Assembly: GCF_004010195.1 (NCBI RefSeq)
Contig: NC_057718.1
Coordinates: 99,538,684-99,558,683, forward strand
DNA: 20,000 nt
Origin: Chiloscyllium plagiosum
Taxonomy: Eukaryota
Direction of reading: 5' to 3'
Part shown: positions 1,112 through 19,459 of the stretch, one piece after another
How the letters are laid out: every line of letters begins with the position of its first letter
Numbering within the stretch: the first letter of the stretch is position 1
Notes under the pieces: generated by a model
What the model was told of the DNA's origin: nothing
What the model saw: only the letters and a program-made list of their open reading frames with translations
Database searches by the model: none
Position numbers and translations under genes: made by a program

Positions 1112-1702
1112 GAGTCATAGAGCTGTACAGCACAGTCAACTAAATTAATCTAATCCCATTTGCTAGCATTGACCAATATCCCTCTAAACCCTTCCTATTC
1201 ATATACCCATCCAGATACCTTTTAAATGTTGTAACTATACCAGCCTCCATCATTTCCTCTGGCAGCTCACTCCATACACGCACCATCCTCTGTGTGAAAA
1301 AATTGCCCCTTAGATCCCTTTTATATCTTTCCCCTCTTACCCTAAACCTATGCCCTCTAGTTCTGGACTCACACCTCAGGCAAAAGATTTTGTCTATTTA
1401 TCCTATCCATGTCCCACATGATTTTATAAACCACTATAAAGTCACCCTTCAACTTCCGACGCTCCAGGGAAAACAGCCCAGCCTGTTAAGCCTCTCCCTG
1501 TAGCTCAGATCCTCCAACCCTGGCAACATCCTTGTGAATCTTCTCTGAATCCTTTTAAGTTTAACAATAACCTTCCGATAGGAGGGTGACTAGAATTGCA
1601 CGCAATATTCCAAAAGTGGCCTAACCAATGTCCTGTACAGCCGCAACATGACCTCCCAACTCCTGTTCTCAATGCTGTGACCAATAAAGGAAAGTGTGTC
1701 AA
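1112..1702 (-). mobile_element. CR1/HER1 LINE, 5'-truncated, frameshifted
   Basis: RSWEVMLRLYRTLVRPLLEYCVQF peptide; gagtcatagag tail; homologous to 15255-16441 and 16768-17585. Confidence 0.95.
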
Positions 1703-1934: not shown

Positions 1935-2625
1935 AACATTTATTCTCATCCCTAATAACCCTTAAAAAGGTGGGAGTAAGCTGCATTCATATAGCCCTTT
2001 CGGTGCAGGTTAAGGAGTGGAAGAATTTTGATCTAGCAATATTGAAGGGACAAGGATGTATTTCCAAGTCCGGATGGTGAGCGGCTCAGAGGGGGACTTG
2101 CAGGAGGTGGTGTTCCCATCCATCTGCTGCCCTTGTCCTTCCAGAAGGCAGTGGCTGTGGGATTGGAAGCTGCTGTCTAGGAAGTCATGGTGCACTTCTG
2201 CAGCGCATGTTGTAGCTAGTAGACACTGATGCTACTGAGCGTCGGTGGTGGAGGGAATGGATGCTTGTGGATGTGGTGCCAATTAAATGGGCTGCTTTGA
2301 TCTGGGTGGTGTCAAGCTTCATGAGTGTGGTTGGAGCTGCACTCATTCCTGTATTCCTGGTGAAGGGCTTTTGCCCGAAACGTCGATTTTACTGCTCCTC
2401 GGATGCTGCCTGACCTGCTGTGCTTTTCCAGCACCACTCTAAGCTAGGCTCTGGTTTCCAGCATCTGCGGTCATTGTTTTTACCGAGCTGCACTCATCCA
2501 GGCAAGTGGGGAATGTTCCATCACACTCCTGACTTGTGATAGATGTTGAGATGGCTTTGAGGAGTTCAGGGATGCTGTAGAATTCCCAGCCTCTGACCTG
2601 TTATTGTAACCACAGTATTTATGTG
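1935..2625 (-). mobile_element. Second CR1-group LINE 3' portion, interrupted by a PLE insert
   Basis: Reverse-complement homology to 647-1110 (e.g. tggtgttccca..tctgctgcccttgtccttc). Confidence 0.8.
2347..2484 (+). mobile_element. Short Penelope-like pLTR-derived insertion with 13-bp TSD
   Basis: TSD gagctgcactcat at 2334-2346 and 2485-2497; body matches the terminus of the GIY-YIG-encoding fragment at 9150-9660. Confidence 0.85.
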
Positions 2626-5020: not shown

Positions 5021-5264
5021 AAGGATTATGTTTTTGGTTCCTCTGGTTAATTACTGTCACCTTGCCATTAAATAAAAACATGCCTAATGGAAACATTAAC
5101 CCCTTCCATTCATGAATCAATGATGGAAGGCCATGGGTGTAGAACTTCCTAAAGACCTGAGAACCGACTCGAATATTTGGTTGGCGTGAAATGTTACTTC
5201 ACTTGGTGAGCATGATGGTTTTCATGTCAGTCTCTCTATTTTCTCCTCTGCATGATGTGGAGGT

Positions 5265-5449
5265 GCCCGATGTTGGACTGGGGTGAACATAGTCAGAAGT
5301 CCCACAGTACCAGGCTACAGTCCAACAGGTTTATCTGAAACCACACGCTTTGTCAGGTGCAGTCATTGATGAAGGAGCAGCGCTCTGAAAGCTTGTGATG
5401 TCAAATAAACCTGTTGGACTAAAACCTGGCATCGTGTGACTTTTGACTT
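5265..5449. mobile_element. Fold-back PLE-terminus element (second family) with hammerhead-like motif
   Basis: Arms of about 60 bp, 5291-5351 vs 5388-5449 (agtccaacaggtttat / ataaacctgttggact); central ttgatga-a-ggagc-agc-gctct-gaaa-gctt. Confidence 0.7.
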
Positions 5450-5635
5450 TCTCCTGTGCAGTCAGAGGTAAGACAGGACCCAATTCTTTTCCTGGCTATG
5501 AATCTCAAAGGTGACCTGTGCTCAGTCAAAGCCATAGCCAAGTTAAAATGATCAGACCCAAGGTCCCATATTACTCGTAGAGTCCTTCATGAAATGTAAC
5601 AGTTCAGAAACAGTGGAGATGTCTATTGAGGAGTA

Positions 5636-6325
5636 GGCAATGTTCAGTACCACTCAGACCTCTCTGATATTGAAATAGTCTGTTTTTCCATGTAGTAAGA
5701 CCTGAACAGCATTCAGGCCTAAGCTGATAGGCTGCAAGTGATGTTTGCAAGTAGCTAATACATACCATCTTCAAGTTCCCCTCCAAGCTACTCACTGTCC
5801 TGACTGGGAAATATGTTGTTGTCCCTTCAATGTCGCTGGGTCAAAATCCTGAAATTCCCTCCCTAATGGCATTATGAGTCTACCCACAGCACACGGACTG
5901 TAGCAGTACAAGAAGGCACCTTCTCAAGGGCAACTAGGGTTGGGCAATAAATCCTCATTCACTATAAATCACCATCCTCATGACCTGTCCCACCTGTCAA
6001 TCTTCATTCCACCTATCCACTCCACCCTCCTCCCTGACCTATCACCTTTACCCCCACCTCCATCCACCTATTGCACTCTCAACTACCTTCTCCCCAGCCC
6101 CAACCCCCTCCCATTTAATCTCTCCACCCCTGAGGCTTCCAGCCTCATTTCTGAAGAAGGGCTTTTGCCTGAAACGTCGATTCTTCTGCTCCTCGGATGC
6201 TGCCTGACCTGCTGTGCTTTTCCAGCAGCACTCTAATCTTGACTCTAATCTCCAGCATCTGCAGTACCCACTTTCACCATGGATAATAAATGCCAGGCCC
6301 AGCCAGCAATGTCCATGTCCCATGA
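5636..6325 (+). mobile_element. Second CR1-group LINE remnant (RT piece plus 3' end) with a PLE inserted in its tail
   Basis: 5760-5953 homologous to 880-1078; tail resumes at 6281 (ataataaatgcc..agccagcaatgtccatgtccca). Confidence 0.75.
5954..6279 (+). mobile_element. Penelope-like element 3' region/pLTR
   Basis: C-rich tract plus ctgaagaagggcttttgcctgaaacgtcga terminus; homologous to 9150-9420 (-); imperfect TSD tgggcaataaat/tggataataaat. Confidence 0.85.
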
Positions 6326-7004: not shown

Positions 7005-7935
7005 TTGACTTCAGAAAGAAAGGAGGAGGACATGCCCCCATCTACATCAATGGAGCGGAGGTGGAGAGGGTGGAGAGCGTCAAGCTTCTCCAAGTGACAA
7101 TATCCGACAACCAGTCCTGGACCTCCCGCGTAGATGCGACTGTCAGGAAGGCACAACAACGCCTTTCCTTCCTCAAGCAGCTCAGGAAATTCAGCATGTC
7201 CATAAGGACCCTCACCAACTTCTACAGATGCACCACTGAACGCATCCAATCTGGGTGCATTATGGCCTGGTATCACAACTGCTCTGCCCAGGACCATGAG
7301 AAACTACAGAGAATGGTGTGCACAGTCCAGACTATTATGGGAGCCAACCTCCCATCCATGGACTCCATTTACACGGCTCACTGCCACAGAAAGGCTGCCA
7401 ACATTAAAGATCCTCCCACCCTGGTAACAATCTCCAAAAATTTTTCCATCAGGCAGAAGATACAGAAGCCTGAACACATGCACCAGCAGATTCAGGAACA
7501 GCTCCTTCCCAGCTGTTATCAGACTGCTGAATGGACCCTCTAGCCTCAAATAATGCTGACCTTGCTAACTTTAATCTCGCCCAGTACACGCCCTGTACAA
7601 TGTAACCTGTAGGCCTCAAACCAAGCCTTTTTGATTTGTATGATCTGCCTGCATTGCTCATTAGGGAGAAAGTGAGGGCTGCAGGTGCTGGAGATCAGAG
7701 CTGAAAAATGTGTTGCTGGAAAAGTGCAGCAGGTCAGGCAGCATCCAAGGAACAGGAGAATTCAGGAAGATGGGCTTATGCCCGAAACGTTGATTCTCCT
7801 GTTCCCTGGATGCTGCCTGACCTGCTGTGCTTTACCAGCAACACATTTTCAGCTCTGCATTGCTCATTAACAAAGTTTTTTGTTGTGCTTCGATGTGACA
7901 ATAAATCATTCAACTGATCAATAATCAATCAATCA
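7005..7935 (+). mobile_element. Rex1/Babar-clade non-LTR retrotransposon, 5'-truncated
   Basis: DFRK..HAPIYINGAEVERVES..KAQQRLSFLKQLRKF..LTNFYRC..CIMAWY is the typical Rex1 post-RT region; (ATCA)n tail at about 7900-7935. Confidence 0.85.
7664..7854. mobile_element. Fold-back PLE-terminus insertion with perfect 15-bp TSD
   Basis: TSD ctgcattgctcatta at 7649-7663 and 7855-7869; inverted arms 7696-7761 vs 7793-7857. Confidence 0.9.
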
Positions 7936-8004: not shown

Positions 8005-8530
8005 GAGCGGATTGCCTCATGAGGAAAGGCGAGACAGGGTTTAGAAGAGGCAGAGATGACTTAATTGAAGCATTTAGGTTTCTGAGGGGACTTGACTGGG
8101 TGCACATGGAAGGGATGTGAGAGAATCTAGGTTTACGGGCAACAGTTTAAAAATAAACGGTCATCAATTTAAGACGGCGATGAGGGAATATTTTCTCCCA
8201 GAGAGTTGTGAGTCTTTGGAATTCCCTCCATCAACAAGGCAATGGATGTAGTGTTTTTTAGTAGAAGTCAATGGATTCCTGATTCCCAACGGGATGAAAG
8301 CTTCTGGGGGGATATGCAGGAATGTCGAGTTGAAGTTAAAATCATGTTGAGCCACGACCTTTACTGAATGGTAGCGCAGGTTTGAAGGGCTGAATGGCCT
8401 ACTTCTGAGGAAAGGTCACTCGACCCGAGACATTCACTCTGATTTCTCTCCACGGATGCTGCCAGACCTGCTGAGCTTTTCCAGCAAATTCTGTTTTCGT
8501 TTCTGGCCGACTCCTGCTCCCAGTTCGCAC
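8005..8530 (+). mobile_element. Older CR1 3' fragment
   Basis: tttagaaga..agagatgacttaattgaa..tttctgaggggacttgac..gagggttgtg-like region, tail gggctgaatggcctac..ctcctgctcc. Confidence 0.75.
8404..8505 (+). mobile_element. Short PLE-terminus insert (third family) in CR1 tail
   Basis: ctgaggaaaggtcactcgacccgagac..ggatgctgccagacctgctgagcttttccagca; imperfect TSD tggcctacttctg/tggccgactcctg. Confidence 0.65.
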
Positions 8531-9149
8531 GTTTCTCCTGTAACGTTTTTGCGATTTAAGTAATCGTCCACCGTCCTTTTTAACACCTCATCGTGATTTC
8601 TTTACGGGTTGACTTTGAACGTTGCCAAAGCTTTGCAGCTTGTGCCGATCAGGATGAACGCAAGAACGCCAAATGATCGAATGGTCACTGCTCTCCCATC
8701 AGGCAGAGGGTGATTGGCAACCAGGATTAGAGAGAGAGAGGGACGGACTTTATTTCTGTTTGGTATCACATTTCTGAACCTGTGAAAACCTTGAGAGTTG
8801 CAGGATGTTCTGTTCATGATGCTGACAGACGTGAAGAGTGAGAGACACATGTAGCAAGCTCAGTTGTCACCCTCTGGCTATAACCCTCCCCTGCCCCCAT
8901 CTTTGCAGGACAGCAGCCCTCACTCCCACAGATGGTCACTCGTCCACACGACCTCATCTACAGTCCCAGCCGGTCAAAGGGACAGTTTGGTCTCTGGGTG
9001 TCCTCTCCAGGCTGAGATGAGCAAGAGTCACTCCCTCTAAGGACGGGACGCTGTCCCTTTAAATACTGCTCGCTGGCCTGATTTTGTGAGCCAGCAATCA
9101 GCCAGGTTCCAGGTCTAACCTCTGTACTTGCTCCCCATATGTTAAACCA

Positions 9150-9660
9150 AGTGTGGCGCTGGAAAAGCACAGCAGGTCAGGCATCATCCGAGAAGCAGGA
9201 GAGTCGATGTTTCGGGCTGAAGCCCTTCATCAGGAATGGAGAGGTGGAAGGGGGCTGCGAGATAAATAGGAGGGTGGCACTGGGGGAAAGGTAGCTGGGA
9301 AGGAGCTAGTTAGATGGAGGTGGGTAATGAAGGTGATAGTTCGGAGGGGAGGTTGAAGTAGATAGGTGGGAAGGAAGATGGACAGGTAGGACGGGTCAAG
9401 AGGGCAGTGCCGAGTTGGAGGGTTGGATCTGCGATAACGTGGGGGGGAGGGGAGATGAGGAAACTGGTGAAGTTGACATCAATGCCATGTGCTTGAAGGG
9501 TCCCAAGGTGGAAGATGAGGCATTCTTCCTCCAGGCGTCGGGTGGCTTGGATTTGGCGGTGGAGGAGGACTCGGACTTGCTCGTCCTTGGTGAGGTGGGA
9601 GGGGTAGTTGAAGTTTTCAGCCACAGGGCGGTGGGGTTGTTTGGTGCGTGTGTCCAGGGA
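9150..9660 (-). mobile_element. Penelope-like element: GIY-YIG endonuclease C-terminus plus pLTR
   Basis: PVAENFNYPSH...RRLEEECLIFHLGTLQAHGIDV matches the PLE GIY-YIG C-terminal pattern (PVAxHF...E..I..L.TL.P.G.N); followed by the C-rich tract and a hammerhead motif. Confidence 0.9.
9206..9233 (-). ncRNA. Minimal type I hammerhead ribozyme motif in PLE pLTR
   Basis: Minus strand CTGATGA-A-GGGC-TTCA-GCCC-GAAA-C-ATC; intact CUGAUGA and GAAA boxes around a 4-bp stem II. Confidence 0.65.
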
Positions 9661-15254: not shown

Positions 15255-16441
15255 GAGTCACAGAGTCATAGAGATGTACAGCATGGAAACAGACCCTTCG
15301 GTCCAACCTGTCCATGCCGACCAGATATCCCAACCCCACCTAGTCCCACCTGCCAGCACCCGACCCATTCCCCTCCAAACCCTTCCTATTAATATACCCA
15401 TCCAAATGCCTCTTAAATGTTGCAATTGTACCAGCTTCCATCACATCCTCTGGCAGCTCATTCCATATACGTACCACCCTCTGTGTGAAAAAGTTGCCCT
15501 TTAGGTCTCCTTTCTATCTTACCCCTCTCACCCTAAACCTATGCCCTCTAGTTCTGGACTCCCCGACCGCAGGGAAAAGACTTTGTCTATTTACCCTATC
15601 CATGCCCCTCATAATTTTGTAAACCTCTATAAGGTCATCCCTCAGCCTCCGACGCTCCAGGTAAAAAAGCCCCAGTCTGTTCAGCCTCTCTCTATAGCTC
15701 AGATCCTCCAACCCTGGCAACATCCCTGTAAATCTTTTCTGAACCCTTTCAGGTTTCACAACATCTTTCCGATAGGAAGGAAACCAGAATTGCACACAAT
15801 ATTCCAACAGTGGCCTAACCAATGTCCTGTGCAGCCTCAACATGACCTCCCAACTCCTGTAGGAGAAAGTGAGGACTGCAGATGCTGGAGATCAGAGCTG
15901 AAAATGTGTTGCTGGAAAAGCGCAGCAGGTCAGGCAGCATCCAAGAAGCAGGAGAATCGACGTTTGGGGCATGAGCCCTTCTTCAGGAACTCCTTCAGGA
16001 ACTCCCAACTCCTGTACTCAATACTCTGACCAATAAAGGAAAGCATACCAAAAGCCACCTTCACTATCCTATCTACCTGCGACTCCACTTTCAAGGAGCT
16101 ATGAACCTGCACTCCAAGGTCTCTTTGTTCAGCAACACTCCCTAGGACCTTACCATTAAGTGTATAAGTCCTGCTAAGATTTGCTTTCCCAAAATGTCGC
16201 ACCTCACGTTTATCTGAATTAAACTCCATCTGCCACTTCTCAGCCCATTGGCCCATCTGGTCCAGGTCCTGTTGTAATCTGAGGTAACCATCTTCGCTGT
16301 CCATGACACCTGCAATTTTGGTGTCATCTGCAAACTTACTAACTGTACCTCTTATGCTCACATCCAAATCATTTATGTAAATGACAAAAAGTAGAGGGTC
16401 CAGCACCGATCCTTGTGGCACTCCACTGGTCACAGGCCTCC
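15255..16441 (-). mobile_element. Young 5'-truncated CR1/HER1 LINE with RT catalytic core, interrupted by a PLE insert
   Basis: SGVPQGSVL..LF.IYINDLD..KFADDTK, then LVRPLLEYCVQFW..RGHRF; (gagtca[c/t]a)n tail. Confidence 0.97.
15862..16001 (-). mobile_element. Short PLE-terminus insertion with perfect 15-bp TSD
   Basis: TSD ctcccaactcctgta at 15847-15861 and 16002-16016; hammerhead box mutated (CTGAAGA..CAAAC). Confidence 0.9.
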
Positions 16442-16728
16442 ACTAATCGCCCCTGAACTGAGGATTTACTAGGGGCATTTCAGAGGGCCGTTAAACCCCA
16501 TTGCTGTGGGCCTGGAGTCACGTGTAAACCAGACCAGGTAAGGATGGCAGATTTCCTTCCGCTAAACAACATTAGCGAACCAGATGGGCTCTTAACAACA
16601 ATTGATGGAGGTTTCGTAGTCATCATTAACTGAATTTTAACTCCACCAATTACTGTGACGGGATTTGAACCCATGCCCAATGAAAATTAACCTGGATTAC
16701 AGGATGAGCAATATTACCATTATATCAC
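16442..16728 (-). mobile_element. tRNA-derived SINE (LINE-2 partner family); its tail lies at about 15195-15254, across the CR1
   Basis: ccagaccaggtaaggatggcagatttccttcc core, gggatttgaaccc B box; the tail acaggatgtgggcatc..tgccca is on the far side of the CR1. Confidence 0.75.
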
Positions 16729-16767
16729 CGTTAAATATACGGCTCAACCACTAATCATAAAATATAC

Positions 16768-17585
16768 AGAGTCATAGAGATGTACAGCATGGAAATAGAC
16801 CCTACAACCCAACTCCTCCATGTTGACTAGATATCCCAACCTCAACTAGTCCCATTTGCTCGCACGTATCCCTCCAAACCCTTCCTATTCATATACCCAT
16901 CTAGATGCCTTTTAAATGATGTAATTGTACCAGTCTCCACCACATCCTCTGGCAGCTCATTCCATACACGTACCACCCTCTGCATGAAAAAGTTGCCATT
17001 TACATCCCTTTTAAATCTTTCCCCTCTCACTTTAAACCCATGCCTTCTAGTTTTGGATTCCCCAATCCTGAGAAAAATACCTTGTTTATTTACCCTATCC
17101 ACATCCCTCATGCTCTTACAAACCTCTATAAGGTCACCCCTCAGTCTCCGACACTCCAGGGAAAACAGATACCCCAGCCTATTCAGCCTCTCCCTGTAGC
17201 TCAAACCCTCCAACCCTGGCAACATCCTTGTAAATCTTTTCTGAACTCTTTCAAGTTTCACAACATCCTTCCTATAGCAGGGGGAACAGAATTGCACGCA
17301 ATATACCAAAAGTGGCCTAACCAATGTCCTGTACAGCCGCAACATGACCTCCCAACTCATATGTTTAGATCAGAGTGGTGCTGCATCTGCAGTGCTCACT
17401 TTTCCCCTCCCAACTCCTATACTCAGTGCACTGACCAATGAAGGCAAGCATACCAAATGCCTTCTTCACTATCCTGTTGACCTGGGACTCCACTTTCAAG
17501 GAGCTATGAATCTGCACTCCAATGTCTCTTTGTTCAGCAACACGGCCCAGGACCTGACCATTAAGTGTATAAGTCCTGCCCTGCT
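16768..17585 (-). mobile_element. CR1/HER1 LINE, 5'-truncated
   Basis: 172-aa ORF2 C-terminus SWEVMLRLYRTLVRP...WNELPEDVV..FKRHLDGYM. Confidence 0.97.
17363..17405 (+). mobile_element. Micro-insertion of PLE terminal sequence in CR1
   Basis: TSD cctcccaactc(a/c)tat at 17348-17362 and 17406-17420; insert is ttagatcagagtggtgct (inverted PLE piece) plus gcatctgcagtgctcactttt (PLE end, compare 6254-6275). Confidence 0.8.
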
Positions 17586-17818
17586 TTGAGTTTCATTGTG
17601 TAAAGTGTGATTAAGAAGAATCATGTGTTAGAATTTTACAACTGTTACACCAAAGTTTTAGATTGAGAACGCAGCATTCATTTCACAGCAGAAAGTCGGA
17701 AGATGATGAAATGTTAAACATTAAGTCTGAATTCCGTGGCATATACTCTGACCAAAGACATTTGGGGTAATTCTAATGTCCTTCCAGGCAAGGAGAGCAG
17801 AGGGAATCTGGGCTTCTC

Positions 17819-18590: not shown

Positions 18591-18608
18591 GAAAGGGTGC
18601 TGAAAGAG

Positions 18609-18911
18609 CAGATCAAGTGATCGGAACGTGAGAGTGACAGAACAATGGTGACAGAACCTGCCTGACTGGAAAGAACATTTGCATAAAGAACATTTCCCTC
18701 CACACTTCATCTGGACTGGAAACGTTAGCTTACTCTCTCTCCGTGGATCAGATCAAGTGATCGGAACGTGAGAGTGACAGAACAATGGTGTATCTACCTG
18801 CCTGACTGGAAAGAACATTTGCATAAAGAACATTTCCCTCCACACTTCACTTCATGCTCTGATGAAGAGTCATCTGGACTGGAAACGTTAGCTCACTCTC
18901 TCTCCATGGAT
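18609..18911. repeat. Tandem duplication, units 18609-18748 and 18749-18911
   Basis: Both units start cagatcaagtgatcggaacgtgagagtgacagaacaatggtg and end tctctcc(g/a)tggat; unit 1 has a short internal deletion. Confidence 0.95.
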
Positions 18912-18987
18912 GCTGCCTGACTCACTGTGATCTCCAGCATTTGTTGTTTTCAGCACAGATTCCAGCCTCTGCAGTCATTTGCTCCTA
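18853..18987 (+). mobile_element. PLE-terminus element (fourth family) with hammerhead-like motif
   Basis: gct-CTGATGA-a-gagtc..gactg-GAAA-cgtt-agc then ggatgctgcctgac..ctccagcatt..ctgcagt. Confidence 0.7.
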
Positions 18988-19237
18988 ATACGTTTGATTT
19001 AACAGGCTGGGTTGAAAATGTGTTATTTATGTAAAACTCTACATTGACCAACATTTGCGGGAATGTACATGTAGAAAGACAAGATGTTTCTCATTAATAC
19101 CAGTTTAACAAAGCTATTAATTGACAAGAAGTAATGAAAAGCACAAGTTTGTTCCTTTCTCCTTCCCACGTACATTTCATAGAATTCTAAGAGTGTGGAA
19201 ACATGCCATCTGGCCCAAAAGGTCCAACAGGTCAGGC

Positions 19238-19397
19238 TTGGAAAAGCACAGCAGGTCAGGCAGCATCCTAGGGGCAGGCAAATCAATGTTTTGAGCATAA
19301 ACCCTTCATCAGAAATGGCTCTCGCTTAAAATGTCAATTCTCCCGCTCCTCGGATGCTGCCTGAGCTGTTGTGCTTTTCCAGCACCACACTCTCGAC
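19238..19397. mobile_element. Fold-back PLE-terminus element, degraded
   Basis: Arms tggaaaagcacagcaggtcaggcagcatcc / ggatgctgcctgagctgttgtgcttttcca; minus-strand CTGATGAagggtt. Confidence 0.8.
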
Positions 19398-19459
19398 ATG
19401 TATCAACTGCAGCTCAATGACTAGAAGGAGAGTTCACACTAGTTTAAATTATTTACCCT

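What the first reader, a model, noticed from the sequence alone, without database searches (positions are those of the whole stretch)
15847..17420. Two independent PLE insertions at the same site of two CR1 copies: possible target-site-specific parasite of CR1
Seen: CR1 15255-16441 has a 140-bp PLE insert with TSD ctcccaactcctgta. CR1 16768-17585 has a different 43-bp insert, with its PLE 3' end in the opposite orientation, and TSD cctcccaactc(a/c)tat, the homologous site shifted by 1 nt. CR1 1112-1702 retains the empty site (atgacctcccaactcctgttctc, about 1648-1670). Differences in length, orientation and subfamily argue against common descent. Inference: the GIY-YIG endonuclease has a preferred target inside CR1 ORF2 (the YRSWEVM codons), so PLEs could systematically disable CR1 copies. 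With only two events, chance is not excluded.
Basis: partly seen in the sequence, partly recalled or inferred. Interest (0 to 1): 0.7.

Follow-up and report, generated by a model that had tools for sequence, protein, structure and literature searches.

The report
Penelope landing hotspot, not CR1 parasite
Two separate Penelope-type jumping-gene stubs sit at the same spot of two copies of another jumping gene (CR1), and public reads show this junction a few hundred times more often than chance predicts, yet in under 1% of CR1 copies and about 0.3% of the Penelope ends, so it is likely a by-product of a loose DNA preference of the element's cutting enzyme and not a parasite aimed at CR1.

Summary
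Observation confirmed, with corrections. Both inserts and their duplications are real. The three CR1 copies are equally distant (83-85%) and have unrelated flanks, so this is no local duplication. Insert B is a head-to-head stub (21-nt arm plus 23-nt tail), and the '1-nt shift' lies within junction ambiguity: both events may use the same nick pair. No genome was held, so I used public reads. 92 and 129 reads per run join the Penelope tail to this exact CR1 site, against 0.2-0.3 expected if insertion were uniform (about 300-580-fold); contigs of two organisms carry the junction. Chance is excluded. But the site takes only 0.2-0.3% of the family's tails and 0.4-0.8% of CR1 copies (one orientation), so 'target-specific parasite that disables CR1' fails. 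Flanks of about 42,000 tail reads per run show a faint AATT(T/G)GG outside the duplication; the site carries a 5/7 and a 3-4/7 match facing each other. Likely cause: loose, roughly symmetric endonuclease preference of a Neptune-type element. The motif does not single out this site, and an amplified CR1-Penelope composite is not excluded. The scan noted such hotspots before on other genomes (unchecked notes).

The parts
15262..16441 (-). CR1 copy A (3' part of ORF2 and 3' end), interrupted by insert A
   Evidence: RVT_1 E 1.3e-12; read loose ends at 15262 and 16442
15847..15861 (.). left copy of target duplication A (15 bp; last base may be element-derived)
   Evidence: skip-155 joint with 15 shared letters
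15862..15989 (-). PLE end stub A: tail at 15862, runs to just before the hammerhead motif
   Evidence: blast to 9 other window copies; loose ends at 15860-62 and 15989; alignment
15959..15986 (-). minimal hammerhead motif, core GAAA broken in this copy at 15966
   Evidence: stem II folds; 84% of reads carry the intact letter; intact motif in copies at 6151 and 9209
15990..16001 (.). extra 12 bp from a tandem duplication across the PLE 5' junction
   Evidence: sequence
16002..16016 (.). right copy of target duplication A
16017..16023 (-). better half-site (5 of 7 to AATTKGG) outside the right duplication edge
15839..15846 (+). weaker half-site (3-4 of 7) outside the left duplication edge
16766..17588 (-). 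CR1 copy B, interrupted by insert B
17349..17362 (.). left copy of target duplication B (14 bp; 15 if 17348 is counted)
17363..17383 (-). inverted 21-nt PLE arm, starting about 35 nt inside the tail end; like the 2353/6147 subfamily
   Evidence: ends at the same column as the 9149 copy and within a few nt of the 7665 inverted arm
17384..17406 (+). 23-nt PLE tail of insert B
17407..17420 (.). right copy of target duplication B
1653..1667 (.). empty site in CR1 copy E (1112-1702, minus strand)
9145..9660 (-). longer related PLE copy that links the stub family to a GIY-YIG C-terminus (supporting part)
   Evidence: 85% to stub A over 88 nt; its 68-aa frame hits RT + GIY-YIG proteins

Best explanation
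This CR1 position is a real landing hotspot of an abundant Penelope-like element, likely because the element's GIY-YIG endonuclease has a loose, roughly mirror-symmetric DNA preference that these conserved CR1 codons partly match, and not because it seeks CR1. Shown: two independent stubs at one site; 300-580-fold excess of the tail-to-site junction in reads; only 0.2-0.3% of tails are there; a faint AATT(T/G)GG 16-22 nt upstream of tail junctions genome-wide. Inferred: the enzyme nicks both strands 14-15 nt apart, each nick just beside a half-site; either 3' end can prime reverse transcription, so the tail lands in either direction. In A one strand primed at the tail and copied 128 nt, and the far end was joined with a 12-bp slip. 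In B both strands primed, one at the tail and one at the second start about 35 nt inside, and two short cDNAs (23 and 21 nt) were joined head to head. Tens of thousands of CR1 copies multiply one good site into roughly 180-330 loci (if the genome is 3-4 Gb, assumed).
For: (48-nt junction, 24 CR1 + 24 PLE): 329 and 368 reads laid, all covering PLE bases 15866-71; depth at 15842-43 is 113 and 146, a plateau; minus 21 and 17 split-joint reads = 92 and 129. Expected 0.22-0.31 per position and orientation from 16,564 / 15,361 empty-site reads and 41,980 / 41,252 tail reads among 12.9 million. Neighbour joints listed are near the uniform level: 4 and 4 reads for A-direction tails up to 40 nt to the right, 17 and 13 for B-direction tails to the left (about 11 expected over 40 positions). 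Contigs: 16 listed pieces in two organisms with 0-8 other letters; X9 summed depth 423 at about 5 per contig suggests some 80 contigs. CR1-side variant 15847 C>A (Glu to Asp codon) in 19 of 113 and 27 of 152 reads suggests more than one CR1 lineage was hit. B is a second orientation and subfamily at the same site. Motif: A at -22 and -21, T at -19, G at -17 in 9 of 9 majority strings, G at -16 in 7 of 9; 7 of 8 half-sites of 4 independent window insertions score 4/7 or more against 26% background (p about 5e-4). The anole PLE protein cuts and extends both strands, prefers ATT, has two RT start sites and is predicted to be a dimer (PMC11167929, parts 1-2 of 4 read).
Against: The motif comes from majority letters at 33-35% agreement, not a logo, and the three runs share one species label (three disjoint start classes, not nine samples). 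It does not single out the site: in copy E the best reading ties with 12 others among 2,250 and the 15-bp reading ranks 14th; three settings in A's right part score higher. The half-site upstream of A's primer matches only 3-4 of 7; symmetry is assumed, since tail reads show only one side. The window test allowed a +-1 shift, includes site A itself and has 4 sites; two other-family inserts score 2,4 and 2,3. B-direction insertion at the exact site was not counted. Only one site was counted at high sensitivity; split-joint controls are less sensitive and rows under 3 reads are hidden. Other CR1 subfamilies may add to the numerator but not the denominator, and hidden tail rows raise the expectation, so the fold is an upper-side estimate. 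Two X15 contigs have depth 33 and 53 against 7-11 for others, so some junctions are near-identical multi-copy. No run holds more than 58% of the window's words, so the reads may be from a relative.
Confidence: 0.62

Rival explanations
1. Most junction reads come from one or a few CR1 masters that already carried the PLE stub and were copied as composites (in trans, or in duplicated blocks); the site is only a mild hotspot.
For: X15 records 1 and 2 have depth 33 and 53 and may share two CR1-side variants (summed depth 86.5 against 86.5 and 86.9). 150-nt reads cannot show both junctions. The joint table hides anything under about 350 summed support (about 115 reads per run), so one shared inverted 5' junction could be unseen. 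Truncation inside the stub would also hide it.
Against: At most 26, 34 and 36 reads per run fit an A-like 5' junction (G at 15998) against 92-129 at the tail junction. Listed contigs differ by 0-8 letters in 48. It cannot explain B, for which the uniform chance is 1e-4 to 3e-4. A has a full duplication with CR1 running on 425 nt beyond it.
Confidence: 0.15
2. The site is favoured by DNA shape or accessibility (a purine/pyrimidine-skewed 15-mer between bendable steps), with base reading a minor part.
For: The 7-letter motif explains the site poorly; the duplication itself has 12 pyrimidines of 15 on one strand (sequence).
Against: A positioned G signal in an AT-rich majority background is base-specific; the hotspot is sharp, with no shifted (indel) variant listed at 3 or more reads.
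Confidence: 0.14
3. One reading: the PLE is adapted to target CR1 ORF2 and acts as a parasite or suppressor of CR1.
For: The enrichment is large and the site is in conserved ORF2 codons. Retroelements that target other transposons exist (Tx1, Tx1-Mar, SINEU-3; PMC4494074 passages).
Against: 0.2-0.3% of tails and under 1% of CR1 copies; tail flanks are diverse (agreement 0.33-0.35); a second cluster of 74-77 reads sits in another repeated flank; the other window inserts lie in unrelated sequences.
Confidence: 0.07
4. Chance coincidence of two random insertions.
For: Both repeat families are very abundant and the scan covers 2,943 windows of this genome.
Against: 92 and 129 reads against at most about 1.5 expected in a +-2 nt window.
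Confidence: 0.02

Closest known systems
Neptune/Nematis-type EN+ Penelope-like elements (Craig et al. 2021, PMC8557442; 21 passages)
   Same: [quoted passage not shown]
   Different: The passages describe microsatellite bias for Neptune and Naiad and 28S targeting for EN-less PLE-X; none describes a loose symmetric target or a hotspot in a LINE
Poseidon of Anolis carolinensis, PAc (Frangieh et al. 2024, PMC11167929; parts 1-2 of 4 read)
   Same: Cuts and extends both strands, ATT preference, two RT start sites bounding the tail, predicted dimer
   Different: Different clade; AT-rich targets, whereas this duplication is 53% G+C; no fixed stagger or hotspot reported in the parts read
Transposon-targeting Tx1, Tx1-Mar and SINEU-3 (Kojima 2015, PMC4494074; 12 passages)
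   Same: A retroelement found repeatedly at one place of another mobile element
   Different: There 77 of 88 SINEU-3 copies flank the host transposon; here 0.2-0.3% of tails; different endonuclease class
Adineta vaga Pen2_Av / Pen2a_Av (Arkhipova et al. 2013, PMC3846280; 12 passages)
   Same: Inverted pLTR, one-sided tail, short duplications; one copy lies in a non-LTR element
   Different: 8-10-bp duplications; single events, no recurrent site in the passages read

Membership tests
EN+ Penelope-like element | minimal hammerhead motif in the pLTR | tested here: met
   motif at 15959-15986 with one core change private to copy A; exact motif 4 times in the window against 0.29 expected, 3 of them in such repeats; no Rfam family reached its gathering score
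EN+ Penelope-like element | 30-40-bp tail on one end and adjacent inverted copy | tested here: met
   B and the 7665 copy: arm starts about 35 nt inside the tail end
EN+ Penelope-like element | linked ORF with RT and C-terminal GIY-YIG | tested here: inconclusive
   not in inserts A or B; related copy 9145-9660 ends in a frame with 22 homologues; 4 of 7 scanned give GIY-YIG below Pfam's cut-off (E 4e-4 to 8e-3), 2 of 7 also RVT_1
EN+ Penelope-like element | RT phylogeny with PLEs and telomerases | not tested
   no RT of this family in the window
Neptune/Nematis clade | CX2-5CxxC linker before GIY-YIG | tested here: inconclusive
   seen by eye in homologues P0008, P0010, P0016 (44% to the window fragment); the window's own copy does not reach the linker
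CR1 LINE (host) | non-LTR RT, 5' truncation, short-repeat 3' end | tested here: met
RVT_1; three 5'-truncated copies with one shared 3' end.
Target-specific retroelement (Kojima criterion) | more than 20% of copies flanked by the target | tested here: not met
   0.20-0.31% of tails at this site; share in CR1 as a whole not measured
Local duplication of one filled CR1 | shared insert, shared flanks, A and B closer to each other than to E | tested here: not met
   different inserts

The most novel reading that the evidence does not exclude
A dimeric Neptune-type GIY-YIG enzyme reads a pseudo-palindrome with a fixed 14-15-nt stagger, and CR1 cannot easily leave the site because it lies in conserved ORF2 codons; hits on active CR1 masters would then select CR1 subfamily changes at these codons (such as the Glu/Asp variant), an arms race between two retroelement classes recorded in the genome.
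Probability: 0.1. Interest if true: 0.75.

Novelty: new variant of a known kind. Interest (0 to 1): 0.48.

Why it matters
How PLE endonucleases choose and cut targets is open (PMC8557442 calls for in vitro work; PMC11167929 gives one AT-rich substrate). A site hit hundreds of times, in both directions and likely through one nick pair, is a ready natural substrate, and insert B records both priming events in 44 nt. Tens of thousands of diverged CR1 copies form a built-in mutational scan of the target. It also warns that shared PLE insertions are prone to homoplasy as phylogenetic markers. It does not show a new parasite of CR1. My five literature searches (listings, open-licence papers only) returned no paper on PLE hotspots in CR1; subscription papers, Repbase entries and supplements were not seen.

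Tried and rejected
No whole genome is held, so the consensus-wide map could not be made. Exact-pattern scans found nothing: junction pattern and PLE-tail pattern in metagenome contigs, tail pattern in viral contigs. Rfam gave 9 weak matches, all below gathering score. Pfam found nothing in the PLE frame or the CR1 C-terminal frame; word-index homologue search 0 of 59; Atlas best score 0.76, uninformative. Folding A's hammerhead region gave z = 0.02, only stem II. Look-up of earlier findings by sequence found 0. One row (insert near 5285) had wrong left coordinates; it was redone (scores 2 and 3) and, with the 8400 insert, left out of the 7-of-8 count as other families; B was left out as the same site as A. 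Rejected: local duplication; B as a cut-down A (other subfamily letters, tail on the other side); primer-RNA pairing as the cause (only 1-2 letters shared at the junction); GG signal as element read-through (it persists in the 15862 class, whose last letters differ between runs).

Full report
What was asked. Two CR1 copies in the window carry different Penelope-like (PLE) inserts at one site; a third is empty. That the genome is a shark's rests on earlier scan notes and recall; I did not determine it.

Anatomy. Copy A (15262-16441, minus) has a perfect 15-bp duplication (15847-15861, 16002-16016) around 140 bp. Of these, 128 bp are a PLE end stub in the same direction as the CR1, from the tail (15862) to just before a minimal hammerhead motif (15989); reads break off at exactly these places. 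The other 12 bp are a tandem slip across the far junction. A's hammerhead core has one private change (84% of reads keep the intact letter). Copy B (16766-17588) has a 43-44-bp insert made of a 21-nt arm and a 23-nt tail that point away from each other. The arm starts about 35 nt inside the tail end, as in two other window copies, and resembles the 2353/6147 subfamily more than A. With B's tail given the family's length, its duplication is 14 bp and starts at the same base as A's; A's last duplicated base is shared by 72% of listed tail junction reads (30,323 of 41,980). The two events may thus have used the same pair of nicks. The site is in the YRSWEVM codons behind the RT domain.

Independence in the window. 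With inserts removed, A/B, A/E and B/E are 85.0, 84.8 and 83.4% alike; patterns AB 48, AE 45, BE 36; none of 6 flank pairs aligns. The inserts differ in length, tail side and subfamily. One ancestral insertion is rejected.

Genome-wide test. No assembly is held. Public runs holding about half of the stretch's words were found (best 58%, so possibly a relative). Three raw-read runs of organism B and one contig run were laid on copy A at 80%: 16,564, 15,361 and 16,214 reads skip the insert (six listed rows), and 41,980, 41,252 and 41,930 reads have a PLE tail joined to other DNA (three listed rows). Uniform insertion predicts 0.22-0.31 reads per position and direction. I then laid two raw runs and two contig runs on the 48-nt junction alone. 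Half-matches were too short to be laid: all 329 and 368 reads cover the PLE side, and depth forms a plateau of 113 and 146 at 15842-43. After removing 21 and 17 split-joint reads, 92 and 129 remain: 298-578-fold over one position, 60-116-fold over five. Listed neighbour joints were near the uniform level (4 and 4 reads to the right; 17 and 13 in the other direction to the left, which I read as pooled over up to 40 positions; about 11 expected). Contigs of organisms A and B span the junction with 0-8 differences (16 pieces listed of 884 laid, most of which are PLE-side only).

Size of the effect. The site holds 0.44-0.83% of CR1 copies and 0.20-0.31% of the family's tails (A direction and A-like tails only). 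The B-direction joint was not among the 15 listed joints, which bounds it only below about 115 reads per run; other hotspots of this size in the same 1.2 kb would be hidden as well. By the 20% rule of PMC4494074 (passage) the family is not target-specific for this site. Even with the hotspot, two filled copies among three is rare (1e-4 to 1e-3), but far likelier than under a uniform model (2e-6 to 2e-5 per pair).

Why here. Majority letters upstream of tail junctions, put on one axis, read AATT(T/G)GG at -22 to -16, just outside a 14-15-bp duplication, with T and C at -7 and -6 (agreement only 0.33-0.35). The site has a 5/7 match on one side and 3-4/7 on the other, facing each other. Seven of 8 half-sites of four independent window insertions score 4/7 or more (background 26%, p about 5e-4). 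Against this: the motif does not single the site out within CR1 (ties with 12 others in copy E; better scores in A's right part), symmetry is assumed, and the sample is small. So a base preference is shown only weakly, and part of the cause may be DNA shape.

Mechanism. Shown: site, junctions, enrichment, low share. From the literature: a PLE protein cuts and extends both strands, prefers ATT, starts RT at two internal sites bounding the tail, and is predicted to be a dimer (PMC11167929, parts 1-2 of 4). Inferred: staggered nicks 14-15 nt apart beside two half-sites; priming from one end (A) or both ends at the two start sites (B). The family link to an endonuclease is indirect: a related window copy (85% over 88 nt) ends in a frame whose homologues include an RT + CX4CxxC linker + GIY-YIG protein, Neptune-type by the description in PMC8557442 (GIY-YIG scores below Pfam's cut-off).

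Main rival. Composite CR1-PLE masters could supply many junction reads. For: two contigs of raised depth; reads cannot show both junctions. Against: at most 26-36 reads fit an A-like far junction; a CR1-side Glu-to-Asp variant in 17-18% of spanning reads; B cannot be explained. I give it 0.15.

Comparison and novelty. The element is a known kind; inverted arm, tail and hammerhead are described (PMC8557442, PMC3846280, PMC4209133; passages only). True transposon-targeting elements differ by orders of magnitude in share. A strong PLE hotspot in CR1 from a loose symmetric preference did not come up in five searches of open papers; supplements were not read. The scan's own notes report such hotspots in other genomes and in a satellite of this genome; they are unchecked, agree with my reading, and whether they concern the same CR1 position I could not tell.

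Verdict. Real hotspot, independent events, no CR1 parasite. Interest 0.48; new variant of a known kind.

Noticed in passing
loose ends before window 15855: 74 and 77 reads (agreement 0.57-0.59; also 4 contigs in X15) share another flank before the PLE tail: a second repeated target or a composite repeat. My stretch selected it through a shared 7-letter end.
   Followed up: no
window 2334-2499, 5940-6291, 7649-7869, 8395-8516, 5241-5460: Five more PLE-type inserts with 12-15-bp duplications, all apparently inside other repeats; two are fold-backs.
   Followed up: partly
window 15989; About 34,000 reads per run continue past the stub's front end into one common sequence (agreement 0.6), and 137-187 fold back exactly there: a preferred stop just before the hammerhead motif.
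   Followed up: no
window 15861-15893; 79-95 reads per run carry a tandem repeat of the 33-nt PLE tail.
   Followed up: no
window 18606-18849: Tandem duplication with 140-bp spacing (94% over 104 nt) next to a different hammerhead-bearing repeat at 18859-18987.
   Followed up: no
window 19215-19400: Older, decayed fold-back PLE with no clear duplication.
   Followed up: no
P0008, P0018, P0004: Database proteins in which a PLE endonuclease C-terminus is joined to unrelated domains (DUF4518, a 7TM receptor, a non-PLE-like RT); probably gene-model chimeras.
   Followed up: no
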